Positions 335 through 62,074 of a DNA stretch of 64,000 bases are shown here, one piece after another. The stretch is taken from positions 20,276,001 through 20,340,000 of the forward strand of contig CM075989.1 of the NCBI GenBank assembly GCA_038087875.1, in the 5' to 3' direction. A model generated the notes under the pieces. The model was not told where the DNA came from. It saw only the letters and a list, made by a program, of their open reading frames with translations, and did no database searches. The DNA is from Malacoraja senta (Eukaryota). Position 1 is the stretch's first letter; each line of letters starts with the position of its first letter. Position numbers and translations under genes: made by a program.

Positions 335-3300
335 CTGCAGAAATAAAGATCATTGTTGAAGTGTATTCTAAAGAATAGCTAACTGCTGCCACCTGTTGGC
401 TGGAAGCAAAGGTCACTAACAAACATGTCATTGTTCAAATCACAAATGCAGTAAAACTGTTAAGCCAGCACACTTGGGGCTTTGCTGGTGCTAGACTGGC
501 AGATTTTCCAGTGTTTGGGATATAATTCCAATCAATATTGCAGCACACATTTAATGAAAAAATGTTTTAAGATAGTATCATAGCTATTCCAGTGAACCAC
601 GTACATTTCAAGGGCAAAGGACACAAAGTGCTGGAGTAACTCAGCAGGTCAGGCAGCATCTCTGGCAAACATGGATAGGTGTCGAGATGCATTGTCTCCA
701 GAGATGCCACCTGACCGGCTGAGTTACTCCAGCACTTCATGTCTTTTTATGTATTAACCAGCATCTGCAGTTTCTAAATTTCAAGGAAACATGAGAACCA
801 GGATTTCACTGATTTGAGAGGAACGACTGGAACCAGGGTCCCATTAATTCACAGGAAAGGTAGGCATCAGCACTTGACAAGATAGATGCTAAACAATTGA
901 GATCTCTAAATTGTGTAGTATATTAACAGTGTTGCACTATAAATCCATTTAGTGGATCACTAGCCCAATAATCTAAAACAGTTAACAATTTAAAAGTTAT
1001 TGCACATTTTAAAATTAAAATAAAATTAAAACTATAGTCATATTATCAGGCAGCCATACGAGCCTTAAATTATCAACTTGATAGAAATATTTTAAGTAAT
1101 GGCTGTTTACTATAATTTATTATACTAAGTAATGAGTAACAGTTTTTTTTTAAAATAATTTCAATAAATGTTGAAATGGGGGTTTAACAATTAGAATTCC
1201 CCTATAGCCAAAAGGTCCTAAATATTTTCCAGATTCTTCAAGAGAAGAGAAAACATGCATCCAGTCTATTCTCCCTATATATACTCGGACAGGTCTGGAG
1301 GGTCAGAATCAAAACATTTCTAATCATCACACTGAGATTCAACTCTTCCTCACAAGAGGACTAATATGAAAGGGGAATCTGCAAGGTGCAGGTCATTATT
1401 TTCAATAATGCTAGATTTATTGCCCTTTTTTATCTATCTACAAACAAAAGCCTACCATACAATGAGCATATCATCTACTTCTTTAGAGGAATCACATCTC
1501 CAAATGATCAAACCAAGAACTAATAATGTTGACTTCTTCAAGCTGCTAACACCTCACATTACATCAAATAGCCACTTCACTAAATGCGAATGGGTCAAAA
1601 AGGATGAAAACAAAGCACAAAATCTTTGATCTTGAAAGCATTTTCTCCCAGAGAGTCATGACTATTTGGAAGACAGTGTGAAAACACTGTTTCTAAATAT
1701 TCCTATGGTAGACACAAAATGCTGGAGTAACTCAGTAGGTCAGGTAGCATTTCTGGAGAAAAGGCGTAGGTGACGTTTCAGACAGAAGAAGAGTTCCGAC
1801 CTGAAACGTCACTTATTCCTTTTATCCAGAGATGCTGCCTGACCCGCTGAATTACAGGTATTCCAGCATTTTGTGTCTATCCTTGATGTAAACCAGTTCC
1901 TTCCTACACATTTTCCTATGGTAGAGATGGATAGATATGGTAAATTATGGGAGAGGGAAGTAAATGGTAGAGATGGAAGCAAAAGGAAAATTCACGTCAG
2001 TTTAGACATCATCTTATAACAGAACAGACATGAGTGGCCAACTGGCATACTCCTGCTTCGTTAGTGTATTTGTTTATACAACAAATTGAAATTATTGACC
2101 TGAATGATCAGAGAAAGCAGCCAGATCCCCGATTTATCAGCATTCCCAAAGGACAGCACCTCAGTGAATATATAATTCCTCTCAATATTGTACAAATTAC
2201 AGTTCTGCAAGTATTACAATGGGACGACATGACAGACAAACAATATTGACCAGAAAATTATGTTTCTAGAACAGAAATATCTCCATTCACAAGTTACCAC
2301 TACACAGTGGCTTTTCTAATATCTGCATTGATTTTTTGGTAATTCTTTTAATGTTAAATCAAAACATTTATGATATTAAAAAAAAACTAATTTTAGTAAA
2401 CATAGCCCTGATAATTTTGCCCATGTAAATGGTTGTTTAATGTTATAAAAAGTCTCCTCCCTCTTCTGTATAGGATTTCATTTAAAAATGTCATCTAAAC
2501 TTGATGTTGGTCCATAACTTGTTAAACTTGAAACTGAAAGTCAGTGTCAAAGTTTCAATGCGATCACTTAGCTCTGCAGGAATTACTATAACTCAAGTGA
2601 AATCAGACACCATTGTTACTAATGAAATGAGTCATGAGTGTGGAGTGTAGAAATAAATTATTTTTTTTAGTGTACAATCTGAACCTCAATCAAAATCTGG
2701 AGCATATGGTGGTGGTGGTTGAAATAATGTTTGTATTAGCTTGTGATGGTTTTGCAAGGGTCAGAATGACATTTGTGAGAACATTTGTTGTTGACAGCTG
2801 CAGTGAGGCAGTACAATAAGGTCCATAATTCGGTAATCCAGCAGCTGGGAAAATTGCACTTCAGAAGATTTAATTTTAAATCACTTGACCTGTTCCTTGA
2901 AGCAGTCGTATATATATTTAGAAAGTTGAAGGGCCCACTTAGAAAGTTGACGTTCTCCCACAGTCAACATTAAACGTACTGCTTGCTGGTGCCTCATAAA
3001 TGGCAACAAGTCCATAAACTTGATACACGAGTTGGGTTGAGAGCCCCGTCACGCAAAAGCTGGAGTAGGGAAGAAACAACTATGAAGATGTTCAGAAAAG
3101 GTTTAGATGATTTCTACACCCTACCTCATTTGAATGTCCTCCTAATTTCTGCTTAAAGCTCACTGGGATGATGGTGGTGGGGGGGGGGGGGGGGGGGGGG
3201 AGAGGAGACTGGTCGCTGCGGGTTTCTAGTAAGTACCTAAGCGAATAACACTCATTGAGGTAAATGTGGCCTCCTCCTGACAGTTGTGCTTGAAGAAGTG

Positions 3301-5756
3301 GGGCGAGGACGGGAGAGAGGAAAAAAAAAATCCAAATTAGTCCTGTAAACTAGTCTGTCCCCCCAAGCCTACAATAAAACTTGCCACTAACTTTAGTTGA
3401 CAGCTCAGGACTTGGACATTTATGCATTTTACAATTACAAGACTTTTGGGATCTGAATTATATTATTGAACCATGATATTTAAATATTTGGGGATGCCTT
3501 GCATATAGCAGGCGTCTTGACACTTCTGAAAATAAAGTGAAAATAGTGAACACAACAGGTGACTAAATGTCACACAGGTCCAGTTAAAGTTAGTGCTGTC
3601 AGGTGGCATCCTTAATCACTTACACACATTGATTTAATTTTACTTTAAAATATGCATAAAAGCAGATATCAATATCACTGTCATCATCTTTGTCAATGCC
3701 CATTGCAATAATTTTGTATTTAGGAACTACTTTAGTAAAAAATTATTCCAGAAGAAATGGACATGTTACTTCCCTTTGATTAACATAGAACAGTACAGCA
3801 CAGGAATAGGCCCTTCGATCCACAATGTCTATGCGGAACATGATGTCAAAACCAACACTTATCTGTCTGCACATAATCCAGATCCCTCCATTCCCTGCAT
3901 TGGGAATTGCCTATTCAGAAGTCTGTCATATGTTATTTTCATAGCTGCCTGCACCACCATCCCCAGCAGTGTGTTCCAGGCCCTTATCACTCTCTGTGTA
4001 AAAACTTGCCCTGAACATCTCCTTTAAACTTTCCTCCTCACATCTTAAAGCTATGCCCTCTAGTATTTGATTGTTCCATCCTGGGAATGAAAGACTTGGA
4101 AGTTCGATACTTAGGTTAAGATACCAGTATTTTATCTATTTTCAATCTGAATCCAAACAAAAGTTTTCAAACAAAGTCAAAAGGTTTTCGACTGCTCCTA
4201 CTCTAATTTGCTTCTAGTAGACAAGATATGAGCAACTTCCTCTTACGGGCAATAATAAAAGTAGGAGATGGGCACTTAGACCCAGCACAGTAAGTCATAA
4301 GGTCAAGTAATAGGAGTAAAATTAGGCCATTTGGCCCATCAAGTCTACTCTGCCTTTCAAACTAGGCTGATCTATCTCTCCCTCCTAACCCATTTCTCCT
4401 GCCTTCTCCCCATAACCTCTGACACCTGTACTTTCGAAAGTATTTTCTAAATAACCTTAAGTGCCCCAAACATAATCACCAACTGCAACCATTACCTCAT
4501 TCAGTGATCAAATTGGAATTCCCATCTATATTTCTTAATTCTTGATCTATTCCCCCCCTACTGCCCAGTATCCCCATATTAATACAATTGATATACTGCT
4601 GTTACTTTTCATGCATTTTATAGCTTGGCCTGTATCTCAAGCTTGCCAAATCTGAAATGCACAATTAGGAAATTCATTAGTTCGCAATTTTTCAATTGTG
4701 CAATTTAGCATATGTTCTGAATCTAATTTAGCAGAAATACATCCAATGTGCAAAATATAATTTAAGTTGAAATTAAGCAAGTTGCAAATCAGAGAAAACT
4801 GGTGTATCTGTACTTCTAGAAAGAATACACCATATATTGTTATCTATGCTACTTTGGCTGGTAAACTGTAATATGAAATGGCTAAGCCCGAGTACCTATT
4901 ACAAACAACAAACGTAGGAGATGGGAACTTAGACCAAGCACAGCAAGTAGCTTGAACAATACATATGTTTTAAATAGCTTCAATAATATAAACTCGTTCC
5001 CACTTAAAATTTGAAATATAAATAATCCCCAAATAATTGCGTACTCGTAGCTAAAATGTATAAAAATTCAGGTTTCATCAACGTTTGCAGATAAGAGTTT
5101 GTCTTGGCATTATGTTCGGCACAGGCATTGTGGGGCCTGTTCCTTTGCAGTATTGTATTATTCTACGTTCTATTTTAATAAATCTTACTCTTTCTGAATC
5201 GGTCCTTAACATACCTTTCACCTCATCCCTCATCTTTATGAAGTATCATCGCTAATTTGCTTTTATTTTCCTCATGCCATGAAGAGTTTCCCACCAATTT
5301 CTTGGTCAGATGACTCATTCCTGGATACCTGTCAACTGATTTCTGTTACCCGACTTCTCAGCAATCTACAACAGCAACACAAAGTAGAAACAAGCAATTG
5401 CAGATGCTGGTTTACACCTGACCCACACTTTATGTCCTTTAGATCAACCCAAAGTAATCTGTCTCCAATTTTTCTTCCTCTTTATTTTTGGCATTTATTA
5501 GAAAAGCACAGCTTAGATCAGCAATACACCTCATTAAAAACGTACAGATTCAAACCAAGATCTTTATAACCCCATGGTGCACTCTGCTATAATTAAAATA
5601 CTTTAAATAAAATTAAATATTAACTTTAAACATAAGAATACAGAATTCAAATTTAACGCTGTCAAGACTTTTCAGTAAACACAAAGCCCCATTAAAAAAC
5701 TGGAATAAAAACTGCAAGAGTTCTTTCTTATTCCTGTTTCAAATTAAATTGCTCAC

Positions 5757-5880: not shown

Positions 5881-8618
5881 CTGCAAAATATTTAAATGAC
5901 TAAAATTATACAAGCATTTCATAACAAAAAGATTACATAAATTAGGCTAATTAAATAATTTTAAGAACGCTTGTCAGATTTCAAGTAATATAGAAAGTGG
6001 GTATTTTCTATCCCACTTCCTGATAACAGACAACCAAGGTATAATATTCCACATTTATAGATCCTCCTATTCAAGTAGCCATTCTTTGGCATATTAGCTG
6101 ATCAGAGCCATTAGATTAATAAAATGTAGCTAGATCCTGTCCTCATGCATGTTTTTCAGCAACATCATGAGATAGCGATCAGATGGCTGTTTTGTGTCCT
6201 TCCCCCAAAGGATTGTGCATGTCAATTGGCAATTTACAATGTAGATTGAGATAATCTTTTTCACCACAAGGCAAGGATCTGGGTGCTTTGTAAAATTAAG
6301 CCATGATTACTGTTGCCCACTATGTAATTGTAGTAAAAAGGAAAGCTTTAACAACTTTAATTAACAACATTTGGGCCACAATCAAAGCACTGCATCTAAA
6401 GATCTAGTTTTCTAGTTCAAAGTGTTATCCTCACATGCTAACGATACTAGTTTTTAAATCATCCTCACTTAATTGCCTTTGCGGATTAGTTGTGTAACCA
6501 TCTGATTTTCATCTTTTCCAAGAAACAGAACACAATGCATATTTTATGCTGTTCCCAAAATCTGCCTTTAGTTCACAAGTTGGCCCTTAAAGAATCGATA
6601 GAATGCTGGAAGAACTCAGCAGGTCAAGCAGCATATGTGGAAACAAAAAGGTGTAATACTATTGATGCTGCTTGACACACCATGTTCTTCAAGCATTTTG
6701 TTTTTGTTCTCGACTCCAGCACCTGTAGTCTATTTTATTTAAAAGAATCCAAAGTACATTAATGTAAAACTAACATCTATCCAACTTTGGTTAATTCACA
6801 TATGAAATTTATCATCGCCAGTTTAAAGCTTAGCATAATTGACAAATTTAGGGAGTTCAATGCTTATTCCAGTTCCTGACCATGTATTCCAGGCTGATAT
6901 CTCCATGAGGTATTGAGTAAGAACTGCATAAAATGAGTTCATGCCTTTCAGATGAGATATTAAATTGAGGTCCCATCTACATGATATCCAAACCAGCATT
7001 TATCCCTGAACAAATATAACCAAATCATTCACCTTACTGCCATTTTCAAATGTATGTACAGTTATATTTCCCTGACATTATAACATTGAGCAACTACACT
7101 TCAAAGGCAATTAATTAGCTACACTAAGTTGTGGGATAATTAACAGTTACAGACAGATTCATGAATGATATTAATAACAATTTAAATCACACAATAACAT
7201 TGTCCATGTTTGTGGGCGCAACATTTAAATAAATGCACACCATGCATCAATAATAACTTTGCTGAGTACTAACTTTTTTTTTAAGCTACCGACAGCAACT
7301 ATTCCGATCAATTGCCATTAACTTTTGTTTAGTTTGGCTCACTGAGGTCTTTCCAAATAGTTCCTTTTCAGCAACACGTGTTGAGGATTAGATGAATTAC
7401 TGAATCTGACAAGTGACACAAAGAGTACAGTCCTGCCAATTGAAGCTAGTAGCAGGGGAAGTGACCACTATCCTTCTTGTGGCACTTTTCCACACAACTG
7501 CAGGAGGTACAGCAGCTGCCCTCCCATCTCATCCCTTCCCACCATCCAGGGACCCAACTGTCCTTCGGGGTGAAGCAGAAATTTGCTTGCACTACTTCCA
7601 ACTTGGGTTGTAGCGTTTAGCGCTCACAACCCGGTCTTTTCAGAACAGTCAAGCTGCATGTCATTTTAATTCTACATCCCACTCCCTCTCTGATCTCTCC
7701 ATATTTGACCTCTCACATTGTTATATTGAAGCCCAAGCCACACTCGAGGCACAAGTTCTCATCTTCCATCTAGGCACAGAACTCAGGACTCCATAATGAA
7801 TTCAATTATTTCTGATAATAAGACTTTATTGTTTATGCTTGAATTTCTACTCACCATAACCTTAACTCTGTTTCTCTCACTGCATAGTTGCTGCCTGACC
7901 TACTTAATATTTCCATTATTCTCTTCTATTTCATGTTTGAGGTAGCTAATGTGTTCCACATCTCAAGTCCAATCTTCCTTCATTGTTTTTCCTCTATCTT
8001 TTGTCCTCAATCATCTCCCTCATTTTACACTACTATCATATTTGGTATAATTGACAAGCCGTCACCACCCTCACTCTGACAGCACCAACAGTACAGTATT
8101 TGTATAACCTGGATTCTCCTGGTCTCTACTCATCACGGGCATTCCCTTTGTTCTCATCATCCCTCCCTCTCTCCTATCTTTTAGTTTGGTCCAGTAATAT
8201 CATACCACATGCAATATTTGCACGCCAATGCTTTTGCGTAACAAGCAAATCACAAGCATATTGAAAGAAATTAGTAACGTAGCCAATAAATTTTACTTAG
8301 TCATTCTCCTGCTTCAGAATAAATTTAAACATGATGCTATTGAATGCACAGGCGTCACTGAGGCAAATCTTGAAAATGACATTTTAAACTAATTTAAATT
8401 TGAAATACTTTTAATATTTATAAAACAGAATACAATGCTACTAATGGCTGTGGCAAAATTGTTACTCAAGGTTTATCAAGAGGTTGCACACATAGTACCA
8501 AAATGATGTTGAAGCTGATGGATACTTTTAACATGTGGCAAAATTGCAATTAAATATGAGATAATACATTTATTTATTTTTAAGTTGTTGATAGTTTATT
8601 CAATATTTATTCACATAC

Positions 8619-8707: not shown

Positions 8708-9164
8708 CTGCAAAAAAAGTAATAACAGAACATAAATTATTTTTGCAATGCTTAGGAGGCAGTAAAACACCCATCTTTATTTGATTTTCATGATGTTTTC
8801 AAACATATTAATATTAAATTATGAACTCAAAATAGGGGAAAAAGAAATCATAATAAGTCCATGCAGCGAAGCTCTAAGTAAAGAAACAAAATGGAATTTT
8901 CCAACAACACAGAAAAAGCTGGAATAATGTCAGCGGGTCAGGCACCATCTGTGGAAAGAGAGATAGTTCATGTTTCATGTTTGGGACTTTCACCAGAACT
9001 GAGGAAAAAGATAGACATGTTATTCTAGATCAGTGGTTCTTAACCTGGGAGTCGTGACCCCCCCCCCCATGGGGGTCATTTGGGTTTTTTCCGGGGGTCC
9101 TGAAAGGGTCATAAATAACATATCAATTTGTTGAGCCCATTTTTAGGAGCCTAGCAAAGGTAGG

Positions 9165-11070: not shown

Positions 11071-11751
11071 CTGAGTATTGGCAGACATGTTTTAATAAAT
11101 CGGGCTGTTTTTTTCAATTTTTGTTTCGGGGGTCACGGTACTGACCAAGAATGTCTGATGGGGTCATGGGGCCAAAAAGGTTAAGAATCACTGTTCTAGA
11201 TAGTGGCAAATATGGGAGAGGGCAATAGGTAGAATAAAGGGAATTGCCCTATAAGGTGTCTGACACTTTAATTTGCCATTCACTTTCACTCCAATCTCTG
11301 TCTGTGGTCTCCTCCACTGTTACAATGAGACCCAAATCAAGCTCAAAACACGATGCCTTAACTTTTACCTGCACATATTGCTATTTCTCTAATTTCTTCC
11401 ATTTTTCACTCATTCTTCTTATTTGCATCAGGATCAGACATTTTTACCTGTCATCTCTTTTCTCCTTTTTATAAATCAGACTATACAAACATGTTGCTCA
11501 GACAAAGAAGCTTATCCATCCCCTATTTGCCATTGTTTCCACCATAATCAGAGATATTCCCTTTGTTCCACTGATTGGCCTCCCTTACCTTCTCTACTAC
11601 CTGGGATAATTTATTTCACCATGTCTGAGTCCCGATGAAAGAACCCAGAACTGAAACATTAACTGTTTCTCTTTTCACTGGTGCTGCCTGACCTGCTGAG
11701 TATTTACAGTTTGACAATATTTCTATTTACAGCATTTATTTTCTGTTTCTT

Positions 11752-12050: not shown

Positions 12051-12547
12051 ACAAAACTAACTTTCAGATATGCAGCATTTGTTTTTATTTGATTTCAAGG
12101 AATTTACCACTTTAATTGTCAGGATTTCTTTTGTAGATTTATACCTACAAAGTAGTGTGCAATATTTACTTTGCTTTAAGTCATTGCAGTTATTGTTGCT
12201 ATTACAATATATTTGGTGGAACATCAGGCAGCACGACAAAATTGCTCAAAGTTGTGACTTTCTAGAAGTGTATAAATTGAAAAGAGTTTTGATCATCCTT
12301 GAAAAGACAACCTTTCAGAACGTTTGACTGGGGGGGCGTGAGAAAATTCTCATGAAAAATGGCAATGGTAACATTTCAACTAAATGGCATCTTTTTAAGG
12401 AAGAACACAAAGTGCTGGAGTAACTCAGTGGGTCATGCAGAACATATATAGGTGACGTTTCAGCTCAAGACCCTTCTTCCTTGCAGATGCAAAATGCAGA
12501 ATTAAATACAGCACAGCAACTGGCCTTTCAGTCCAAATGCTGTAAGC

Positions 12548-12781: not shown

Positions 12782-12999
12782 CTATAAGCCATTGTTTATT
12801 TTCTGCATTATGCTTCTTGCACGCCTGATAACCGTGCCCTTTCTAGACATTCTTAACTTTTACTCACTCTCGCTTTGACTAGTTTCCTTTTAAATTGTTT
12901 CTGTTTCCTGGCTCTAACATTCTCCCTTCTCTTGGACTCCCCCTGCTGGCCTTCAAATCTCTTTGGGCCTTTTTTATTTCCAACTGCCAGTGTGACATC

Positions 13000-13620
13000 A
13001 ACTGTCTTGACTTCCCTACTCCGTTACCCACTCTAATTTCACCCCCTCTGAACGCGCAGCCCATCATTCACTGAGCAACAGTTGTTAAACCCGCTAATAA
13101 GCGAGGTGCCGCTGTGGTCTGGTAGGCTGCCCTGTACAGTGCTGAGGCCAGGCACCAGCTCTCAGACACCTGATCATACTGACCCCTTGACCAAGACTCC
13201 ACGGACAAACAGCAGGCTATCATCTCCCAGAATGTTTCGAATCTCATCACCTCTGGTGATCTGCTCTCCACAGCCTACAACCTTATCGTTCCGCAGCCCC
13301 ACACTACCGGCTTCTATCTCCTCCCCAAGTTCCACAAACAGGACTGCCCTGGCAGACTCATTCTTTCCGCCTGCTCCTGCCCCAGAGATCTCATGTCCAT
13401 GTACCTTGATTGGATCCTATACCCCCCTAGTTCAGTCCTTTCCCATCTACATCTGAGAAACCTCACACACCCTTCAACTGCTCAATATTTTATTATTTCC
13501 ATGCCTTCATTGCCTCATCGTTACCATGGATGTCCAGTCCTTTTACACCTCCATCCCCCTCCACCAGGAAGGTCTCAAGGCCGTCTGGTTCTTCCTTGAA
13601 CAGAGACCCAATCAACGCAT
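13000..13620 (+). mobile_element. Penelope-like element reverse transcriptase fragment (degenerate)
   Basis: Conceptual translation across frameshifts gives FYLLPKFHKQDCPGRLILSACSCP...YLDWIL.PLVQSFPIYI...TMDVQSFYTSIP.HQEGLKA, matching PLE RT motifs (YxLPKxHK...PGRPI; DVxSLYTSIP). Confidence 0.85.
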
Positions 13621-13696
13621 GTCCACACAAATAAATCATGCTGGGTGTCAGGGGTTATGGGAAAGGGCAGGAAAATGGGGTCAGGAGGTAGAGATA

Positions 13697-15790: not shown

Positions 15791-16647
15791 GCCGCGGGTG
15801 TTGGAGAGCCGGGGCGGAGGGAGGGATGGAAGCAGAAGCAGCGGCGGGGACAGATGCGGACGGGGAGCCGGGGCTGCCGAGTGTTTGCCGGGCTGGCGAG
15901 TGTTTGGAGGCTAGCGAGTCGCTCGCTGCAGCTCTGGCCATGGAGCAGCCTCAGTGCAAGAGTCCCGGGCCTTCGGAGGCGTCGGAAGCGTTGCACCGCT
16001 GCCTTTAGTCTCTTTGACAAATTCACCCTGGTGACCGGCATGGATCAGGCAGCGTCTCTGGAGAGAAGGATTGGGTGACGTTTCTGGTCGTGACCCTTCT
16101 AAGGGTCTCAACCCGAAACCTTTAGAAGGGTCTCGACCCGAAACGTCACCCATTCCTTCTACCAGCGATGCTGCCTGTCCCGCTGAGTTGCTCCAGCATT
16201 TTGTGTCTCTCTTCGGTTTAAACCAGCATCTGCAGTTCCTTCTCACACAATGAGACCCAACAAGACAACATTGAAGCTAGTACCACACGGGTGGGGGAGG
16301 GACGGAGAGAAAGGGGATGTTAAAGAAATCGATATTCATACTCAATCGGAGAAATTAGTTGTCTTTAAATTGATATTTTGTTCATCTTTAAATGTAAGTC
16401 TTGAATTCATGTATCGCGGGAACAAATAAGCAAAGGCAAGATGGTAAATATAAACTACAAATTAACTTCAGAAAATGAAACATGTAGAGATGAACTTTGC
16501 CCTTCCCTTTACAAAGAATAACCTCAGGGATTATGCAGTAAACGCCATTCAAATACTCTGCAATCTTGCGATAATATTGTTCATGTTCAAATCCGATAGG
16601 TAAGTCTTGATTTGTTCAATATTATAATTAGTTCAAAGATAGCAACT

Positions 16648-36580: not shown

Positions 36581-36604
36581 TAGTAGTTAGATAATATGTC
36601 AACG

Positions 36605-38443: not shown

Positions 38444-38482
38444 GTAAGTCAAACTGTGGATAAATGTGTCATTTTCCTGAGT

Positions 38483-46048: not shown

Positions 46049-46252
<204 letters not shown>

Positions 46253-49800: not shown

Positions 49801-51064
49801 GGGACCAAATAAGAGGTCGGTTGGGCAGATAGAATCGGTGCAGGGAGGAGTGGGTAGGTGATGGACGGATAGGGTGGGTGGGAGGTTTGTGGGGCAGAAG
49901 TGTATGTGGGAGAATTTAGGTAAAAAAGGAACCAAGAGGAAGGTTACCTGAAAATGGAGAATTCATTGTTCATGTTTAGAATATAAAGTGCTGGAGTAAC
50001 TCAGAGGGTCAGGCAACATCTCTGGAGGATATTGATAGGCGGCCTTTTGGGTCAGGTCCCTTCTTCGCCTACCCATGTCCTCCAGAGATGCTGCCTGACC
50101 CGCTGAGTTACTCTGGCACTTTGTGTTCTATGCACAATTCCAGCATCTACAGTTCCGTGTGCCTATGCTAATGGATTGTAGAGCACCCATGCAGAATACA
50201 AGGTGATGTTCCTGTAGTTTGCATTTGGCCTCATTCTGAATGGAGGAGACAGAGAACAGACAGGTTGATGTGGAAATTGGGAGGGGACTTGAAATGGCAA
50301 GCAACCGAGAGCTCCAGTTTCCTTGATGGGCAAAGTGCAGGTGCTCGGCAGTGGTTGTATCATCTGCATTTGGTCTCACGGTTTGTGTATCCTGAAAGTG
50401 GTGCTACAGCGTGCTCTTCTGGTGAGCCAGTACATTGCAGGGAGGAAACAGAGTTACTCTGAGCTATCTGCTATTTACATTCTACTATTTTTTAAATTTG
50501 CATCTTCTATTAACGGTGTGTGAATATCAGTTTGCACCTCGGTTTTGATTAAACTTTAAAGATTAATTTAGCAAAAAAAAAAGACAATGGAGAACTAGAA
50601 GAGTTATCTCCGAGATCAGAACTAGCATCAGTACCATTGGTCAGGCATAAGAGGGCATGATTTGGTAAGGAGTTATCTAAGTCAAGCAGTACTGCCTCAA
50701 GAACCACAGTATGGTTCATGACAGAAAATGCCTAAATAGTAGAGAACATTATTAATCATATTATTCTGCTCAGGACTTCAATACCTGCTGCAACAAATTA
50801 GAGAACATTATTAATCAGATTATTCTGCTCAGGACTTCCATACCTGCTGCAACAAATTGTTCCAACAGCTAAGAATTTCATTGTTCCATTGCCAGTGCAT
50901 ATGGCTGTTAAACGATCTTAACTCTTATAGTTTAGTCATGGGTGAAAGGTGCGGCAAGATAAAGAAATTGGGTAAACTGACCTAAATTATGCTGGTCCTG
51001 TTGGAAAATAATCGGCAAATTGCAAAACTCCTCAATCATATCACCTGCATGTTTAGTGAAATAC

Positions 51065-51264: not shown

Positions 51265-52599
51265 ACTGACCTCCCCACCTTCAAAGGGATCTACAGGAAG
51301 CACTCCTACCATCAGGGACAAGATGCAGCAGCCTAAAAATCATGACCAGCAGGTTCAACAGCTGTGGCAATGAATTCCACTCTCTTGAATCTCTCATTCT
51401 TGCTAACTTGCTAACATTTTATAGATCATGACCCAGAAATTGCTCTGCCACTTTTTTGTGCTGGAAACAGGCCCTTCGGCCCAATTTGCCCATACAGGCC
51501 AAAATGTCCCATCTACACTGGTCCCAACCAACCTGCATTTTGCCCATATCCCTCTAAACCTGTCCTATCCATATACTTGTCCAAATGTCTCTTAAACATT
51601 GCGATAATACCTGCCTCACCTACCTCCTCCGGCAGCTCGTTCGTTACACCCACCACCCTTTGTGCGAAAGTTACCCCTCGCAGGGTTCGATTAAATCTTT
51701 CCCCCTTTGCCTTAAACCTATGTCCTCCGGTCCTTTCACATTGTTACTTTGTATGAAGATGATAAAACCTTCTGTACAGAATCACATTTTGCACAGAAGT
51801 TCCCAGGGCACCTCCAATACAAGCTGTGCACTATTTAAATCCTCCCAACATATACCTCGAAAAAGCACACACAGAGTGCTGGGAGTAACTCAAACGGTCT
51901 TGCAGCCTCCCTGGAGATCATCTAAAGGGTCACGACCCAAAACATCGCCCTGAGACTCTATTGCTTGGAATGCAGGAGGATGAGGGTGATCTTATGGAAG
52001 TGTATAAAATGATGAGAGGAATAGATCGTGTAGATGCACAGAGTCTCTTGCCCAGAGTAGGTGAATCGAGGACATATGTTTATGGTGAAGTGGAAAAGAT
52101 TTTATAGGTATCTGTGTGATCACTTTATCACACATAGGGTGGTGGGTGTACGGAACAAGCTGCCAGAGGAGGTAGCTGAGGCAGGGACAATCCCAACGTT
52201 TAAGAAACAATTAGACAGGTACATGGATAGAACAGGTTTGGAGGGATATGGACCAAACACAGGCAGATCGGACTAATGTAGCTGGGACATATGCAGATGT
52301 TGGGCCGAAGGGCCCATTTCCACAGTTTCCCCATCACCCTATCTGCAGTTTCTTGTGATGCCTAAATATAATTAACTAACCCACCATGCTTTGTTCTACC
52401 CATCCAATCTTCTAACCTTCTTTCCCCCCACCCCTGCAATCAGTCTGAAGAAGGGCTCTGACCTGAAACGTCAAGTACCTGTCTAAATGCCTCTTAAAAA
52501 GTTCATTGTTTATGAACTTCTGAAAAAGAACAAAACATTTTTTTTTTACCAACTTTGACCATTCAACCACTTTGACCATTGAGTCTCTGCATCCAATTC

Positions 52600-52870: not shown

Positions 52871-53409
52871 GTTTCTTGTGAACCCGTAATAAACTAATTT
52901 AAAAAAAAACACACACATCTTCTAACTCTCTTCCCTCCACCCCACCCCTGTTGCAAAACATACTTGGCTAATAAATGACTATTATGATAATAATCTGAAG
53001 AAGGGTTCTGACCTGAACCGTTTAGACACAACGCGGAAACAGACCCTTCCGTCCCCGCACATTGACATAAATGAACTAACTAGCTAACTAACACACACAC
53101 ACACCACAATTTTACAGATAAAAACCCCAACAATTAACCAACAAACCTGCATGTCTTTGGAGTGTGGGAGGAAATCGAAGCCCCGGGAGAAAACCCCGCC
53201 ACAGGTCAAGGGAAAAACGTGCAAACTCCACACAGACAGCAGCACCCGCTGTGAGGCGGCAACTCTACCGTTGCACCACCTGGTTGTGCAGATGCTGGGC
53301 TGGTAAAGGTGAGGCCCGGCACAAATTGGAGGATAAACACCTCATACTTCGTTTGGGCAACTTACACCCCGGCGGTGTGAATATTGACCCCTCTCACACC
53401 AACCCTTGC

Positions 53410-54065
53410 TTCCCTCCATCCCTCTCCCTTCCTCCATCCCCCCCTCTCCCTTCCCTCCATCCCCCCCTCTCTTCCCTCCATCCCCCCCCCTCTCTCCCTC
53501 CATCCCCCCCTCTCTTCCCTCCATCACCCCCCTTCCCTCCATCACCCCTCTCTCTTCCCTCCATCCCCCTCTCTCTTTCCCTCCATCCCCCTCTCTCTCT
53601 CTCCCTCCATCCCCCCTCTCTTCCCTCCCTCCCCTCCTCTCTCCCTCCCCCCTCTCTCTTCCCTCCATCCCCCTCCCTCTTCCCTCCATCCCCTCCTCTC
53701 TTCCCTCCATCCCCCCTCTCTTCCCTCCATCCCCCTCTCTCTTCCCTCCATCCCCCTCTCTCTTCCTCCATCCCCCTCTCCTTCCGTCCATCCCCCTCTC
53801 TTCCCTCCATCCCCCCCTCTCTTCCCTCCATCCCCCCTCTCTTCCCTCCATCCCCCCCTCTCTTCCCCTCCATCCCCCCCTCTCTTCCCTCCATCCCCCC
53901 CTCTCTTCCTCCATCCCCCCCTCTCTTCCCTCCATCCCCCCCCTCTCTTCCCTCCATCCCCCTCTCTCTTCCGTCCATCCCCCTCTATCTTCCCTCCATC
54001 CCCCCTCTCTTCCCTCCATCCACCCCCCTCTCTTCCCTCCATCCACCCCCCTCTCTTCCCTCCAC
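53410..54065. repeat. Polypyrimidine minisatellite, unit about (CTTCCCTCCATCCCCCCTCT)n
   Basis: Directly visible; roughly 30 imperfect ~20-nt units. Explains the P/S/L-rich and G/E/R-rich ORFs in the track. Confidence 0.97.
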
Positions 54066-54224: not shown

Positions 54225-54578
54225 GATGGGCAGCTTACGACCCAGCTGTATCTGTATGAATATTGATTTCTCTAACTTCAAGTAACTCTTGTTTTCCTTT
54301 CTCTCTGTCCCTCCCCCACCCTAGATCCCCAACCAGTTTCACTTTCCTCCTGATTTTCTGCCTCCTCGTCACCCTCCCTTCAACTAACAATTCTACATTT
54401 CCTTGAGCAACGTCTGCTTTGATCTGTCCTTTTCACACATTGCCCTTCCACATCTGTAGGCTCTCTCCCCCTGGCCCTCGGTCTAAAGAAGGGTCTCGAC
54501 CTGAAATGTCGCCCATTCCTTCTCTCCAGAGACGCTGCCTGTCCCGCTGAGTTACTCCAGCATTTTGCGTCTATCTTG
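54225..54578 (+). mobile_element. Penelope-like element 3' end (GIY-YIG tail, UTR, decayed hammerhead terminus)
   Basis: gggcagcttac...atgaatattgatttctctaacttcaagtaa, then gtctaaagaagggtctcgacctgaaatgtc and the terminal motif. Confidence 0.8.
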
Positions 54579-55865: not shown

Positions 55866-56573
55866 TGCATCAGTAAAAATATTGAATTTGTTTCTTAAAC
55901 AGCAGCAGAAAACAAGCCATCTGCCTTTCAAAAAATTACATCAGACCTCTTTAAATGGGATCCTATCATATGAATTCCATGTGTAGGAAGGAACTGCAGA
56001 TGCTGGTTTCCACCGAAGATAGACACAAAATGCTGGAGTAACTCCGCGAGACAGGCAGCATCTCTGGAGAGAAGGAATGGGTGACGATTCGGGTCAAGAA
56101 CTTTCTTCAGACAGTCAGGGGAGGGAAACTTGAGGTATGGAAGGGTAAGGTGTGAAAATGACAGATCAAAGCAGACAACAGCCAAGGAAATGTAGAATGG
56201 TTCATTGCTGGCTGATGGGATGTAATTTTGTACCTCATTGCTAATTTCTAGCACTATCCCCATATCCCTTTATTCTCCCAAAGTCTGGAAATATAACACT
56301 GCTTTAACAAACATGACAGGTTCTACAGGGAAGAAAATTCCATCTAAATGGTGAAACCACCCTGCTCACATCTAGTCTGTCAACCCCTATGAGTCTTCAA
56401 ATAACCCCTGCATTCCCTCTCTCTCCATCCCTCCTTCACCCAAGTCATACCAGCTTTTTGTTCTCCTGTTTCCTTTGCCATTATTACTTTTTTGCATATC
56501 TTTCATTCATTTGTTCTATATCTCCCTACATCATCGTCCATATCTCTCGTTTCCCTCTCCCGTGACTTTCAAT

Positions 56574-56601
56574 CTGAAGAAGGGTCTCGACCCGAAACGT
56601 C
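56574..56601 (+). ncRNA. Minimal type I hammerhead ribozyme-like motif (intact consensus copy)
   Basis: CUGAAGA-A-GGGUC-UC-GACCC-GAAA-CGUC at the 3' terminus of a Penelope-like fragment (about 56395-56665). Confidence 0.65.
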
Positions 56602-59162
56602 ACCCATTCCTTCTCTCCAGAGCTGCTGCCTGCCCCGCTGAGTTACTCCAGCATTTTGTGTCAACCCTATGAGAGGTTTGTATGTTTTGGTGCAATCTCC
56701 TATCATTCTACTTTTGAGAATACAATTCCTAGCTGCTATATCCCTCCTCCCTACCATTTCTGAAACCAGTCCCGTGAATATTTCTACATGATAGCAATGT
56801 CAAGTATATATTTTCTTAGGTAAGGACACTAATCCCTGTGATGCCCCACTTGTCAAAGCAAAACAACCTGAGAATGATCCATTTATCCCCACTCTTTGCT
56901 TTATTTCTGATAACCACTTCTCAATCCATATCAGTAGTTTATCTCTAATTCTGTGCACGCAAACATTGTTGACCGATCTCCTATCTTGGACTACATTGAA
57001 CTTGTGTAAATCCGAATCAGGCAACAGTATTTGCGTTGGTGAACACTTTTTTTGCAGATTTAGGTGGAGACCCATTTATAGTTTTTGTTTGAATTAAAGT
57101 GTGCAATGGGCACGTCTCCTATTCAAAGCTGCTGGAAACTGATATTCTCAAACATAAACGCACACAGGCCATAAACCCAAAGTTAAAATAGAAACAAAAG
57201 AAACTTATCAATTCATAACACTATTCCTTGTATCTATAATTAACGTGTTTTTTCAGGTGTCCGGATTATTACGCTAATCCGTAACATTTTCACTTCACGG
57301 ATGGTTTCCTGTGCACAGTGAGATTTCCTGTGCACCATGCATTCTCTCTCCTAACTGTTGGTGTAAGCATATAAAGAAGCCAGGCAGCCAAAAGTGATAA
57401 CCCCTTGACTGAGTACGACAAACTGGAATGCTTAGATTCCACTATCACTCTTTACCTCCATTCTATCTCCTTTATCTAACATCAAGACTGGATGAGTAAA
57501 AACATGATCGAACTAACTTCTGGGAAATTTAAGGGCAATGTCCTTGGACCCAGGCACAAACTCAGTCACTCTTGGCAACTGCCATAGGCTGGCAACTTTG
57601 CCATTGTATTTAACCCTGAGACCTGCTTCTGATCACATATCTGTGCTTTCACTACTTTCACTTCTTTAAGTTGTGGTGCTTCCTCCTTGCTTACTTCCTG
57701 GTGCTGAAACTCTCATTTATTTCATTATTAATCAAGAATTGACTGTTCAAATACTCCCTAAGGGAATTTTTCAATTTCCACCCAACATAAATCCAATTTT
57801 ATCTAAGACTTTCATTTGTACCATGCCATTTACTCATTACATCTGGGTTCACTGATATGCATTTTTTTCCCCAACTAAGAATACCCCCATTTGAAGTTTC
57901 TTATCCTTGTTTACATATCTTTCACTTTCTTTATCACATCCTCCAGCCCGACAAGCCTTGAGTTCTCTTTCTATTTCTAATTAGAGTCATCGAGCCATAC
58001 AGCACAGAAACAGGCCCTTCAGCCCAACTTGTCCGTGCCGATATCCCGTCAAGACTATCAAGACTAATCCCCCTAGCCCTCATTTGGCCCATATACCGCA
58101 AAACCATTCCTATCCATGTACCTGTCCAAATGTCTTTTTAGATTCTTTTAATTCTGATCTCTTCTATTCCCACTAGCCCCCCCCCCCCCCAGTTTTAATC
58201 ACTCCCTCTCTAATGGGCATTTCTTTAGCTGCTTCTACTGTGCAACTTCAAATTCTCTCCACTAATTTCTTTGTTTCAATTAGAATATAGAAAAGTACAG
58301 CACAGGAACAGGCCCTTCACCCCACGATGATTGTGTCGAACATTTGTACCATTTTTAAAGGAACTAACTTCTAAACGGTTTTGACGGTTGAAAAATGGGT
58401 TTCTAGATATTGTCTAATAAGGTCTGGACGACTTAAGACATTTTAAAACATTACACGTGGAAAATAAATGATAGCTAATATTATTCTGGTTTAGATTGAC
58501 GTTAGTCTGGGTAACCTAATTGCATTAATCGTGAGCCAAACTTGATCAAAATGAAAAAGTTAGTTCGTTAAGTTTAATGATTATAGATCCTAAAGACCTT
58601 GATTTCCAACCATTAGAAAAGGAAGATAAGAATGCCAGTGCAGGTGTGCCAGTCTTGTTATCTGCATGTTACTGTTTATAAGAAAATAATTTCACGTTGC
58701 ATTTGGGACAATAAAGCAAATTTGAACCACTTCTCAGATACTTATGCCTCAATGTGTACAACTCCTTTCCTTGGACCATGCAAACAGTTCCATAGTGACA
58801 CAAAAAATGGTAGATGCTGGAATCTTGAGCAAAATATAAAGTGCTGAAGGAACTCCATGGGTCAGGCAACATTTATGGAGAGCATGGACTGAGGACAATT
58901 TGGGTCGGGGCTCTTCTTCAGTCCCGACCCAAAACGTCACGTATCAATTCCCTCCCCAGATGCTTCCTGATCTGCTGAGTTCCTCGAACACTTTGTGTCT
59001 CAATCATTTGCATGGTTGACTAAGGTTCTTGAAGCTGACCAAGCTATGCTATGCAAACTTTGATAGGCAAATTTGCAAGTCAGTCATAAAACATAGGCAG
59101 GTACACAAAAATGCTGGAGAAACTCAGCGGGTGCAGCAGCATCTATGGCGCGAAGGAAATAG

Positions 59163-59989
59163 TCAAGTCAAGTGAGTTTATTGTCATGTGTCCCTGGTAG
59201 GACAATGAAATTCTTGCTTTGCTTGAGCACAACAGAACATAGTAGGCATTTACTACAAGGAATTCTATAAATATATACACAATGGTCAATATACTGATAA
59301 AGTGCAAATAACAGTATTGGCTAATAAAGTTCAGTGTTATGTCCGAGCCAGGTTTAATAGCCTGATGGCTGTGGGGAAGTAGCTGTTCCTGAACCTGGTC
59401 GTTGCAGTCTTCAGGCTCCTGTACCTTCTACCTGAAGGTAGTAGGGAGATGAGTGTGTGGCCAGGATGGTGTGGGTCCTTGATGATGCTGCCAGCCTTTT
59501 TGAGGCAGCGACTGTGGTAGATCCCCTCGATGGAAGGGAGGTCAGAGCCGATGATGGACTGGGCAGTGTTTACTACTTTTGTAGTCTTTTCCTCTCCAGG
59601 GCACTCAAGTTGCCGAACCAAGCCACGATGCAACCGGTCAGCATGCTCTCTACTGTGCACCTGTAGAAGTTAGAGAGAGTTCTCCTTGACAAACCGACTC
59701 TCCGTAATCTTCTCAGGAAGTAGAGGCGCTGATGTGCTTTCTTAATAATGGCATCATTGTTCTCGGACCAGGAAAGATCTTCAGAGATGTGCATGCCCAG
59801 GAATTTGAAGCTCTTGACCCTTTCAACCATCGACCCGTTGATATAAACGGGACTGTGGGTCCCCATCCTACTCCTTCCAAAGTCCACAATCAGTTCCTTG
59901 GTTTTGCAGGTGTTGAGGGCCAGGTTGTTGTGCTGGCACCATATGGACAGTTGCTTGATCTCTCTTCTATACTCTTCTATCTCTCTTCT
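59163..59989 (-). mobile_element. 5'-truncated Rex1/Babar-type non-LTR retrotransposon
   Basis: WCQHNNLALNTCKTKELIVDF...FKFLGMHISEDLSW...KKAHQRLYFLRRL...FYRCTVES...DPHHPGH...LPSGRRYRS...RFRNSYFPTAIRLLN, with a (cttga)n-type tail. Probable TSD AAATAG at 59157-59162 and 59990-59995. Confidence 0.88.
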
Positions 59990-61093
59990 AAATAGGCAAC
60001 GTTTCGGGCCGAAACCCTTCTTCAGACATAAAACATAGGCAGTTGTGTTTAGTGGCTGCAAAGGCACAGCTTATTAAACTTTAATTCCAAGAAACCGTAG
60101 CAGATTTACATAAAATTTCATCTCAATGCACCATTGTATCATGTGGGTCACTGCTGCGTCATTTGCTAGATTCAGTAATTTCATCAATTCCTCTTCAAAC
60201 AGAAATGTTCGTCATGTTGTGGATTCATTCTGAGTGCAGTGCACAACTGACCAAATGTGGGAACAAACCCTTAGACTGAAGAAACCCTTAGACCCAACCT
60301 GAAATATCGTCTAAACATTCCCTCCACAGATGCTGCCTGACCCATTGAGCTCCTCCAACAAATAGTTTTATGCCCAAAATTCCATCTGCAGTCTCTTGTG
60401 TCTCCATACTTAATGGATCTTATTTATACCTGTTTTAATGTTGAAAATTAGAGGTCACTCATGTCTTCGATGTTGTGGATGATCAGCCATGATCCAAATG
60501 AATGGCGATGCTGGCTCAAAGGGCCGAATGGCCTACTCCTGCACCTATTGTCTATTGTCTTAAAATTCAACTGATCAGCAAATTATTCAATTAACTGCTT
60601 CCCTGCTATCTCCAAAAGATAGAAATTTCCAAACCAGTCATCAACATGATGTGGCTTTGGTTCGGACAAAGTGACTTTGGGGCTGTAGTCCAGGAGTTCA
60701 GGAAGAGTGGAGCCCATAATGGCCCAATGTTAGCTGGGGAAGGGGTGATAAGTATAACGAGTATTACACAAACTCGAAAAAAAACAGCGCCTCATATTCC
60801 ACCTGGGTAGTCTACAACCCGATGGCATGAGTATTGAGTTCTCCAATTTCAAGTCACATTCTTCCCCACTATCTCTCTCTCGCTCTCCCTCTGTTTCTCT
60901 CCTTCTGATCTGCCCTGGTCCTCTCACACATTCATACTTCTTCCCAAACCCTCCTCCACCACCGCCTATCATCCAGTTTATTTTCCTTGTCCCACCCTCT
61001 CTATCTGCCCATCACCCACAAAATCCAGAAATAGATCCCCTCCCCTAAAGATTCCCATCTGATCACCCTCTCTCCCTTATTTATTTCCATGCT

Positions 61094-61388
61094 GGGCGGC
61101 ACGGTGGTGCAGCGGTAGAGTTGCTGCCTTACAGCGAATGCAGCGCCGGAGACCCGGGTTCGATCCCGACTACGGGTGCTGTGTGTACGGAGTTAGTACG
61201 TTCTCCCCGTGACCAGCGTGGGTTTTCTCCGAGATCTTCGGTTTCCTCCCACACTCCAAAGACGTACAGGCATGTAGATTAATTGGCTTGGTAAATGTAA
61301 AAATTGTCCCTAGTGGGTATAGGATAGATGTTAGTGTGCGGCGATCGCCTGTTTCTGCGCTGTATCTCTAAACTAAACTAAACTAAAA
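61094..61388 (+). mobile_element. Well-preserved tRNA-derived V-SINE (HE1-like)
   Basis: A-box tggtgcagcgg, B-box gttcgatcc, V-domain ggttttctcc...ggtttcctcccacactccaaagacgt and (ctaaa)n tail. Confidence 0.9.
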
Positions 61389-62074
61389 CCTTCCTTTCCA
61401 TTATCTGCAGCCCTTTGTTGCTGCACATATCACCTCCCATTGTCACCATCCCATTTCCACCCATCCCTCTCCCATCTGATCCATTTGCCAATCAACCCTT
61501 CCTCACCTGGACTCACCTAATGTTTGCCAGCTCTTACCCCTCCCCCTCACTTCTTTCTGACCAGTTGGAGTGTTCTGACCTGAACGACGACTGTCTAGTT
61601 ACCTCCACAGATGCTGCCTGACCATTGACCTCCTCCAGACAATCTGTTCTCTGCTCTGTATACTGGTTAGTAGATTGGTGTACGTGCTGTCGCATAACGT
61701 AGCCAAGATCAACAAAATGATCGCTTCCTGCTTGCATCCTGTACAGTTTTTCTAGTTTATTTTTGTGATAACCAGAGTGAAGAGAAAGATGGTAAAAAAA
61801 AATGTTCACAAAATGATTAAATAATTGTCTCAGGTGGTGTAAGTGAGGACAGAAACCCAACCATTAAATTAAATACATTGCATTTCCAAAACAAATCTGT
61901 TATAAGATACAACATGGAAATAGGTGCTTCAACCCACTGAATCCAAGCCAACCATCAATCACGCATTCACACTAGTTCCATGTTATCCCACTTTTCCAGT
62001 CACTGCCTACACATTAGGGGCCAATTCACAACAGAGGCCAATTCACTTACAAATTCACACGTTTTTACAAAATT

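What the first reader, a model, noticed from the sequence alone, without database searches (positions are those of the whole stretch)
600..61640. Window-wide family of hammerhead-ribozyme-bearing, Penelope-derived short retroelements (retrozyme-like system)
Seen: more than 15 copies of one repeat family whose terminus reads GT-CTGA[A/T]GA-A-[stem II]-GAAA-CGT[C/T]. Examples lie near 1785, 16125, 17395, 22620, 25193, 29843, 36672, 38583, 38637, 39972, 42066, 45526, 52445, 54483, 56574 and 59998, and many are decayed. Two subfamilies keep the fold with different sequences: GGGUC-UC-GACCC with a GUC site, and GGGU-UUCG-GCCC with a GUU site. Stem III is reduced to palindromic ACGU, which could form only in a dimer. 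In longer copies the motif follows a GIY-YIG C-terminus in sense orientation, and a PLE RT fragment is also in the window. Established: Penelope-like elements carry minimal type I hammerheads thought to cleave as dimers, and retrozymes are non-autonomous hammerhead retroelements. Inference: this lineage has amplified very short hammerhead-containing units that land in introns and promoters of housekeeping genes. Caveat: stem I is only about 2 bp.
Basis: partly seen in the sequence, partly recalled or inferred. Interest (0 to 1): 0.85.

Follow-up and report, generated by a model that had tools for sequence, protein, structure and literature searches.

The report
Penelope retrotransposon ends carrying hammerhead motifs
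The repeats are the short end-pieces of a Penelope-like retrotransposon, each beginning with the minimal hammerhead ribozyme motif normal for these elements and scattered about once every 2 kb through this genome, likely made when the element's reverse transcriptase copies only the first 100-135 bases of its RNA, so they are a very abundant case of a known thing rather than a new ribozyme-driven mobile element.

Summary
Observation confirmed: 45 copies in the window, all 16 named places among them; 272 in a 600-kb genome sample (about 0.9 million genome-wide); 43,832 exact motifs. Only 4 of 45 keep an intact core. The unit is the pLTR end of a Neptune-like Penelope element: it lies about 116 nt behind the GIY-YIG stop, has two 3' ends 35 nt apart (the PLE 'tail'), and forms head-to-head pairs with one tailed arm (31 of 41). 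Both subfamilies are tied to the ORF. Retrozyme reading not supported: no arrays in the window, units of 95-140 nt, short and long copies share lineages, no gene preference, stem I 2 bp, no compensatory stem II change. Not found in print: two thirds of whole-motif copies start within about 6 nt of the core, at an initiator-like TCAGT and not at the cleavage site, suggesting run-off at the RNA 5' end. Outside the window, a young 66-nt half-hammerhead unit forms arrays inside older copies, mostly near scaffold ends (14,759 junctions). The scan noted the same element class before in shark and ray genomes. Cleavage and transcription are untested.

The parts
619..775 (.). head-to-head pair of truncated pLTR ends (model 29-94 / 42-126), no core
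1700..1913 (.). head-to-head pair (21-104 / 2-138 with tail); core decayed
5389..5419 (-). tail fragment only
6600..6730 (.). old head-to-head pair, no core
7472..7910 (+). old PLE 3' end: Cys linker and GIY-YIG remnant (7472-7778) followed by body remnant (7873-7910)
8907..8996 (-). old solo unit
11640..11709 (+). old solo unit
12399..12479 (-). solo unit with internal deletion
12924..13626 (+). PLE reverse transcriptase fragment, broken, about 70% DNA identity to young copies
16042..16253 (.). head-to-head pair (8-67 / 5-139 with tail), short re-start between the arms
17289..17422 (-). solo unit with tail, starts at the motif edge
21270..21340 (-). truncated unit with tail
22504..22645 (-). 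solo unit with tail, about 260 nt upstream of the COPS2 ATG (22903)
24704..24944 (.). UUCG-type head-to-head pair 24751-24944 with overlapping centre on stem II, plus adjacent tail fragment
25047..25120 (-). truncated unit, divergent partner of 25191
25191..25275 (+). unit with CUGAUGA core, GAAA disrupted
29721..29937 (.). head-to-head pair (23-137 with tail / 6-100)
36600..37282 (-). long copy: GIY-YIG C-terminus (37282-37097), 3' UTR split by another repeat (36837-37019), intact CUCG-type motif at 36699-36672
38478..38730 (.). UUCG-type head-to-head pair (2-139 with tail, intact motif / 2-105), unique 20-nt spacer
39908..40000 (-). UUCG-type solo unit
42066..42156 (+). solo unit
44571..44655 (+). 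old unit
45523..45658 (+). solo unit with tail, starts at the motif edge
49019..49102 (+). old unit with short UTR
49570..49599 (-). body fragment
49983..50314 (.). head-to-head pair 49983-50157 next to a GIY-YIG remnant (50314-50177, minus)
51864..51950 (.). decayed unit (minus) with a short opposite-strand piece
52442..52475 (+). motif part with 33 nt of UTR, body lost
52993..53022 (+). motif fragment
53302..53450 (+). GIY-YIG C-terminus and UTR start, followed by a C-rich tandem expansion to about 54080
54226..54578 (+). long copy: ORF end, 3' UTR, unit at 54481-54578
55976..56213 (-). unit with tail and about 93 nt of UTR
56395..56669 (+). unit with UTR; intact CUCG-type motif at 56574-56601
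58797..59000 (.). old head-to-head pair (3-132 with tail / 15-94)
59099..59163 (-). UUCG-type body, starts just after the predicted cleavage site
59991..60027 (-). intact UUCG-type motif, body lost
60273..60398 (+). old unit with tail
60767..61638 (+). old long copy: GIY-YIG C-terminus (60767-60890), UTR split by a SINE-like repeat (about 61090-61391), decayed unit 61567-61638

Best explanation
The repeats are the hammerhead-bearing terminal repeat (pLTR) ends of an endonuclease-containing, Neptune-like Penelope retrotransposon, inserted singly or as head-to-head pairs, and are likely by-products of the element's own copying, with the hammerhead motif predicted to be a passenger rather than the tool that cuts them out. 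Shown: the unit lies about 116 nt behind the GIY-YIG stop of long copies; it has two 3' ends about 35 nt apart; about half of all copies start at the 5' edge of the motif; insertions have short target duplications; short and long copies share lineages; CpG sites in the core decay after insertion. Inferred, by analogy with the anole element PAc: the protein nicks DNA and starts reverse transcription inside its RNA at one of two sites (body end, tail end); use of both sites on the two strands, or fold-back, gives the pairs with one tailed arm. Inferred (about 55%): the transcript starts at the initiator-like TCAGT just before the core, so priming at the 5'-proximal copy of those sites runs off the RNA end after 95-135 nt and gives the short unit. 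The core is kept in source elements, so it may cleave with protein help or as a dimer, but cleavage does not set the ends of the copies.
For: Long copies: in 18 of 20 fetched loci the alignment shows GIY-YIG coding DNA directly upstream of the unit, in sense (17 UUCG type, 1 CUCG type); the other 2 fit by position. 5 of 29 best CUCG-type loci also have it. DKG 19/20, YIDD 19/20, Cys linker 18/20; Pfam RVT_1 and GIY-YIG below the curated cut-offs; Atlas 0.97 to an RT/GIY-YIG cluster. L061 shows inverted truncated copy, pLTR, tail, ORF, pLTR. 3' ends cluster at model 86-110 and 126-140. One tailed arm in 31 of 41 pairs, 20 expected (p=5e-4). 5'-end rate per nt: 0.006-0.007 at model 21-40 (predicted cleavage site 32/33), 0.036-0.058 at -15..12, 0.004-0.006 further up the UTR; the same in solo copies. 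52 of 78 whole-motif copies lose homology within about 6 nt of CUGA. Re-started copies begin again at the same edge (L080; L187). Empty sites: 10 of 76 could be rebuilt; by eye 4-5 show 7-12 nt duplications and none shows a captured exon. TCA(+1)GTC matches the Inr consensus, with an MTE-like CGACC at +18 and 4/5 DPE at +28 (PMC5580651 passages; chance per site 0.0005, 0.003, 0.17). Penelope has an internal Inr/DPE promoter in its pLTR (PMC2377424 passages). In PAc, hammerhead mutants insert normally (PMC11167929).
Against: No RNA start was mapped. In D. virilis Penelope the start lies about 120 nt upstream and the intron ends at helix I; here too the CAG follows a pyrimidine tract and could be a splice acceptor. 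The MTE/DPE matches overlap the hammerhead and are not independent of it. The purine-rich core can pair with the upstream pyrimidine tract, which could also stop the enzyme. The upstream library (57 segments) may miss old subfamilies, and a few of the 52 copies are misclassed by the pyrimidine cut-off. 14 of 37 long copies and 45 of 122 edge-starting copies carry the tail, so the tail does not separate the two routes. No tree was built for the Neptune call.
Confidence: 0.85

Rival explanations
1. Retrozyme-like system: the short units are a non-autonomous family that is transcribed, self-cleaves as tandem dimers, circularises and is reinserted by the PLE protein.
For: Core better kept than flanks (16/361 against 158/1912 mismatches in long copies, p=0.013; 0/11 against 23/75 variable positions among four subfamily consensuses, p=0.03). 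Two same-strand exact-motif pairs among the first 100 listed (L186, L187). Retrozymes were reported in one chondrichthyan and derive from pLTRs (bioRxiv 10.64898/2026.07.22.740005).
Against: No array in the window; 3 of 84 arrays of period >=35 in the roughly 1 Mb then held overlap the family, none above 2 copies. No excess of 5' ends at the cleavage site. No separate lineage. The hammerhead fold lies 5-10 kcal/mol above the minimum, and stem II pairing is <=0.11 in the four monomers tested. L186 is a partial PLE tandem and L187 a 38-nt re-start. The two-copy query found no second full-length locus among 40 scored of 3258 candidates.
Confidence: 0.05
2. SINE-like variant: each short unit carries its own promoter and priming sites, so some short copies are re-transcribed and re-copied in trans, without any cleavage.
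For: The unit holds the Inr-like start and both 3' priming sites. pLTR sequences alone can support trans mobilisation in rotifers (PMC3846280 passages).
Against: No diagnostic variant is confined to short copies at 8 sites checked, and the nearest-neighbour test is null. The spacer of the 38478-38730 pair was not found elsewhere among 40 scored of 106 candidates. The test has limited power (138 copies).
Confidence: 0.15
3. The sharp 5' edge comes from RNA structure or splicing, not from the transcription start: the enzyme stalls or switches template at the core/pyrimidine-tract helix, or copies a spliced RNA with a very short first exon. Inverted pairs may come from self-priming on an antisense template.
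For: Predicted 8-bp helix between the UTR pyrimidines and the core purines; pyrimidine tract plus CAG at the edge; intron ending at helix I in D. virilis; antisense self-priming proposed in PMC3846280.
Against: A stall would be expected on the 3' side of the helix (model 14-24), while ends pile up at -2..4. No shared upstream sequence; direct joints at rebuilt sites; no GT..AG joint ending at the edge among those listed (14 joints not shown).
Confidence: 0.35

Closest known systems
EN+ Penelope-like elements, Neptune type (PMC8557442; PMC3846280)
   Same: RT, Cys linker, C-terminal GIY-YIG, pLTR, inverted truncated copy, optional 30-40 nt tail at one end, strong 5' truncation, short target duplications
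   Different: Copy number near 0.9 million ends; a sharp 5' edge at the hammerhead that I did not find described (searches; Fig. S2 of PMC11167929 not seen)
Minimal hammerheads (min-HHR) of metazoan PLEs (Cervera and de la Pena 2014, PMC4209133)
   Same: Core boxes, unpaired base before stem II, G10.1-C11.1, palindromic 15.2-16.2, mostly solo copies, opposite-strand pairs
   Different: Stem II 4 bp with YNCG loop (7-8 bp in Schistosoma); stem I 2 bp (4-5 bp there, 2 bp in D. virilis); low motif variability; 43,832 exact motifs against about 9,000 in Xenopus and 4,000 in coelacanth (descriptors differ)
PAc, Poseidon element of the green anole (Frangieh et al. 2024, PMC11167929)
   Same: Two internal priming sites that define the tail; hammerhead upstream of them; cleavage not visible in copy ends
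   Different: Other clade; there the ORF starts inside the hammerhead, here the first ATG-led frame lies behind the tail (my reading)
Animal non-LTR retrozymes (PMC7229834; bioRxiv 10.64898/2026.07.22.740005)
   Same: Type I hammerhead, pLTR kinship, dependence on a PLE protein
   Different: Those are tandem arrays with a full hammerhead in each unit (about 170-400 nt) that give circular RNA; these are solo or inverted 95-140 nt ends

Membership tests
EN+ PLE, Neptune type | PLE-type RT (DKG, YIDD) with C-terminal GIY-YIG in one ORF | tested here: met
   972-aa frame in L056; DKG 19/20, YIDD 19/20, GIY-YIG pattern 14/20; Pfam below cut-off; Atlas 0.97
EN+ PLE, Neptune type | CX2-5CxxC linker between RT and EN | tested here: met
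   18 of 20 loci; definition from PMC8557442; the linker is shared with Nematis
EN+ PLE, Neptune type | pLTR from partial tandem, inverted truncated copy, optional tail at one end | tested here: met
   L061, L063, L070; 31 of 41 pairs with one tail
EN+ PLE, Neptune type | Placement in the Neptune clade on an RT tree | not tested
   no named reference PLE proteins were held
min-HHR type I | CUGANGA, stem II, GAAA, palindromic ACGU, UH site, unpaired base before stem II, G10.1-C11.1 | tested here: met
   all main subfamily consensuses; intact in 4/45 window and 28/272 sample copies
min-HHR type I | Compensatory changes in stem II | tested here: not met
   only U-A/U.G between subfamilies; no double-sided change among the commonest pair types in 187 copies
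min-HHR type I | Core conserved beyond flanks | tested here: inconclusive
   16/361 against 158/1912, p=0.013, but against invariant flank sites 99/1363 the gap narrows; the CpG positions of the core are changed in 24-26% of cells
min-HHR type I | Self-cleavage | not testable with these tools
   predicted fold not favoured
non-LTR retrozyme | Tandem units each with a complete hammerhead | tested here: not met
   none in the window; rare two-motif loci are a partial PLE tandem and a 38-nt re-start; no genome-wide array census was made
non-LTR retrozyme | Unit of about 170-400 nt with canonical helix I | tested here: not met
   95-140 nt, helix I 2 bp; sizes from PMC7229834; the preprint lists families from 51 nt
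non-LTR retrozyme | Non-autonomous lineage apart from the PLE | tested here: not met
   nearest-neighbour p=0.61 on 138 copies
non-LTR retrozyme | Circular RNA product | not testable with these tools
   only assembled contigs were offered

The most novel reading that the evidence does not exclude
A split-ribozyme hyperparasite has grown out of this family. A 66-nt unit holding only the 3' half of the hammerhead (it begins exactly at the G of GAAA) is cut to unit length with the help of the 5' half supplied by the array head or by any of about 44,000 intact copies, circularises, and is copied round by the Penelope reverse transcriptase into older pLTR copies by homology, giving young arrays of 1-27 junctions near chromosome ends. 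The plainer reading is a minisatellite spread among homologous repeats by gene conversion.
Probability: 0.12. Interest if true: 0.75.

Novelty: new member of a known kind. Interest (0 to 1): 0.4.

Why it matters
As a class this is known, and the scan met it before. Its value is as a very large fossil record of Penelope transposition, a mechanism still poorly understood: about 0.9 million ends fix two priming sites and one sharp 5' edge, and show that hammerhead cleavage does not shape the copies. That makes two open questions directly testable: where the PLE transcript starts, and what the hammerhead is for. Hundreds of thousands of inverted pairs would also be a large source of long RNA hairpins in introns. 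The 66-nt arrays may show an early stage of a pLTR piece turning into a satellite or a retrozyme-like element.

Tried and rejected
Rfam scan: no hammerhead family, only generic hairpin hits below gathering score. Pfam on 17 window frames: no PLE domain. PDB sequence search with the PLE ORF: nothing. RNA: no RNA holder listed; only contigs from other coded organisms with small shares. Laid contigs of 4 runs show the same ends (loose ends at L061 2375-2378, 2465-2474, 2509) but cannot show a start or expression. Laying runs on a 66-nt array did not complete, so its presence in other organisms is open. Search for other hammerhead families in 1.03 Mb: 2 weak hits, both rejected. Two-strand cofold gave no ACGU/ACGU pairing. 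For the 66-nt duplication, intramolecular stem III had probability 0.0 and the hammerhead fold lay 10.5 kcal/mol above the minimum; only 7 of 40 array heads keep the whole core string. Cleavage-defined 5' ends rejected. Host-exon capture not seen in 10 rebuilt sites of 76. Mobilisation of a whole inverted pair not seen. Gene preference rejected. Supplements of PMC11167929: 3 files searched, no hit, Fig. S2 not seen; it may bear on the claim that the 5' edge is undescribed. Supplements of the bioRxiv preprint were not opened and may list this family for its one chondrichthyan. No look-up in this genome's earlier notes gave anything.

Full report
Scope. The window is G000:C13:20276001-20340000 of a 1.94-Gb genome. 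It holds COPS2 on the plus strand (ATG 22903, last exon to about 46250) and a PDIA3-like first exon on the minus strand (about 54850-54709). That the host is a cartilaginous fish is my inference from recalled repeat types and from two earlier scan notes; no call names it. 'Model' positions count from the C of CAGT, four bases before CUGA; the predicted cleavage site is 32/33.

1. Observation. The family is real. A window-seeded profile found 46 hits, a tail-including profile 45, covering all 16 named places. In 60 evenly spaced 10-kb stretches of 15 large scaffolds it found 272 hits in 599,600 bases and none in the reversed sequence, which scales to 0.68-1.08 million copies (unplaced contigs not sampled). 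The strict motif occurs 43,832 times, control 0. The window (0.70/kb) is close to the 0.57/kb of scaffolds other than C1. Only 4 of 45 window copies and 28 of 272 sampled copies keep the full descriptor. Rfam reports no hammerhead.

2. What it is. The RT fragment at 13183-13596 has 151 listed matches from 10,640 candidates, 150 scored. I fetched 20 of those with long open frames. In 18 the alignment shows the unit in sense behind GIY-YIG coding DNA, 116-117 nt after the stop in L056 and L070; L062 and L071 fit by position. The proteins carry DKG (19/20), YIDD (19/20) and a Cys linker (18/20), the linker marking Neptune/Nematis elements (PMC8557442, passages). L061 is a textbook insertion: inverted truncated copy 1860-2125, pLTR 2127-2474 (98% to 6130-6474), a tail of about 35 nt, then the ORF. 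The CUCG subfamily is tied to GIY-YIG in L073 and in 5 of 29 best-matching loci. In the window, GIY-YIG remnants lie upstream in sense of the units at 36702, 54481, 61567 and 7873.

Ends. 3' ends cluster at model 86-110 and 126-140, as expected from two priming sites and an optional tail (PMC11167929, parts 1-2 of 4 read). 52 head-to-head pairs lie within 60 nt, against 12 direct and 11 tail-to-tail; 9 such pairs are in the window. In 41 pairs with both 3' ends, one arm is tailed in 31, none in 8, both in 2 (20 expected for one; p=5e-4). The 8 window pairs folded give hairpins of 53-102 bp. For 5' ends I extended each of 182 copies reaching model <=12 against 57 upstream segments, with a cut-off above the best of 150 random sites: 42 extend, 140 do not. 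The rate of ending per base is 0.006-0.007 around the cleavage site, 0.036-0.058 at the motif's 5' edge and 0.004-0.006 beyond 60 nt upstream (2 of 272 left out at locus edges); solo copies give the same picture. Of 78 copies holding the whole motif, 52 have no pyrimidine-rich UTR, and their match falls from 46/52 at position 4 to background by -3. Re-started copies begin again at this edge. Empty sites could be rebuilt for 10 of 76 solo copies; by eye 4-5 have 7-12 nt duplications, with direct or microhomologous 5' joints.

The hammerhead. It has the min-HHR anatomy of Cervera and de la Pena (PMC4209133, parts 1-2 of 4 read), who also describe solo copies and opposite-strand pairs and found little cleavage in vitro. 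Stem II is 4 bp with a YNCG loop; stem I is 2 bp. Among four subfamily consensuses 0 of 11 core and 23 of 75 other positions vary (p=0.03); in long copies core mismatches are 16/361 against 158/1912 (p=0.013), but 99/1363 against invariant flank sites. The core's CpG positions are changed in 24-26% of cells, which fits neutral decay after insertion. No compensatory stem II change was seen. Folding does not favour the active form.

Lineage and targets. Long and short copies are mixed in all main subfamilies, and neighbours in sequence do not share length class (0.594 observed, 0.605 permuted, p=0.61). Density in the COPS2 span is no higher than outside it.

3. Mechanism. Best reading: by-products of Penelope retrotransposition. 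Shown: linkage to the ORF, two 3' ends, tail asymmetry, the 5' edge, target duplications, shared lineages. Inferred: internal priming at two sites as in PAc, and run-off at the RNA 5' end. The edge coincides with TCA(+1)GTC, the Inr consensus; CGACC sits at +18 to +22 (MTE CGANC, in the CUCG and CCCG types only) and 4 of 5 DPE letters at +28 to +32 (PMC5580651, passages; chance values). D. virilis Penelope has an internal Inr/DPE promoter in its pLTR (PMC2377424, passages), though its start lies upstream of an intron that ends at helix I. A splice- or structure-based cause, and antisense self-priming (PMC3846280, passages), remain open. I put the PLE reading at 0.85-0.9 and the run-off step at about 0.55.

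4. Comparison. It works like, and passes the tested features of, an EN+ Neptune-type PLE; the tree was not built. It fails the retrozyme features that could be tested (PMC7229834, passages; bioRxiv 10.64898/2026.07.22.740005, parts 1-3 of 5 read). Two same-strand exact-motif pairs among the first 100 listed turned out to be a partial PLE tandem and a 38-nt re-start. Retrozyme-like arrays elsewhere in the genome are not excluded, since no genome-wide census was made.

Side finding, outside the window (0 junctions there). A 66-nt unit spanning model 25-90 forms arrays whose junction occurs 14,759 times exactly (control 0). In 40 arrays read (35 from one dense region of C1 chosen for its hits, 5 from elsewhere) there are 1-27 junctions; 89 internal units differ by 1.1% on average from the commonest unit, while the heads are older, mixed copies: 27 of the unit's own body type, 5 of another subfamily, 8 other. 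A rare variant has 39 hits; 13 of the 17 on scaffolds of known length lie within 3.1 Mb of an end (5.5% expected; the cut-off was chosen after seeing the list). Units within an array are only slightly more alike than between arrays (1.14 against 1.52 differences), the 27-mer has higher-order periodicity, and two arrays with different heads share an identical 74-nt 3' flank. These points favour DNA-level spread. The unit lacks CUGANGA and stem II, so it fails the retrozyme criterion, and the cis fold is not predicted. I found no description of it in the listings.

5. Novelty. A new, very abundant member of a known kind; earlier scan notes reached the same class in a shark and a ray genome. The sharp 5' edge and the 66-nt arrays were not found in the searches (listings only, apart from the papers named above); Repbase and Dfam could not be checked.

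6. Verdict. Observation confirmed; Penelope origin right; retrozyme interpretation not supported; catalytic activity untested. Interest 0.4.

Noticed in passing
L166-L185 (G000:C1:2.70-3.40 Mb), L020:2391-2571, L100:6073-6230, L142-L145: Young 66-nt unit (3' half of the hammerhead plus body) in arrays of 1-27 junctions inside older pLTR copies; 14,759 exact junctions; mostly near scaffold ends, with one internal cluster at C2:88-89 Mb.
   Followed up: partly
L061:2377-2511: Body bases 52-59 can pair with either of two CAGCAU-containing stretches (model 80-87 and 110-117); each 3' end lies about 12-20 nt behind one of them, a possible signal for the two priming sites (z=-2.1 for the tailed unit).
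   Followed up: partly
window 9165-11070: Transposase-like remnant (9332-11070; hAT-like by recall, no Pfam hit) whose left end is a perfect 94-nt inverted repeat, 9165-9258 / 9284-9377.
   Followed up: no
window 54709-54850 (-): PDIA3-like first exon; no later PDI exon motif was found in the window, so the gene may be broken by the assembly gap near 51063-51263 or be a fragment.
   Followed up: partly
window 22903-46250 (+): COPS2 gene; 14 family copies lie in its span.
   Followed up: yes
window 53400-54080: C-rich tandem repeat of about 21 nt that starts in the 3' UTR of a PLE end at 53302-53450.
   Followed up: no
window 59573-60070 (-): LINE RT C-terminal fragment (Pfam PF09004 hit) ending at the motif copy 60027-59991.
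   Followed up: no
window 15171-15306, 16743-16911, 26546-26714, 39674-39771, 43479-43647, 53133-53241, 61090-61391, 62439-62536: SINE-like repeat (HE1-like by recall); three PLE ends elsewhere (L012, L027, L030) run into the same site of this repeat through a shared 5-nt word.
   Followed up: no
window 21350-22430: Degenerate GC-rich tandem repeat upstream of COPS2 (family D18).
   Followed up: no
window 13699-13829: Near-perfect hairpin directly after the RT fragment.
   Followed up: no
window 15630-16008 (+) and 52598-52921: GC-rich open frames that could be first exons of further genes; no Pfam hit above cut-off for the one tested.
   Followed up: no
L187 (G000:C1:3997405-3997470): Two exact motifs 38 nt apart on one strand, a natural tandem that could serve as a cis-dimer test substrate.
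   Followed up: partly
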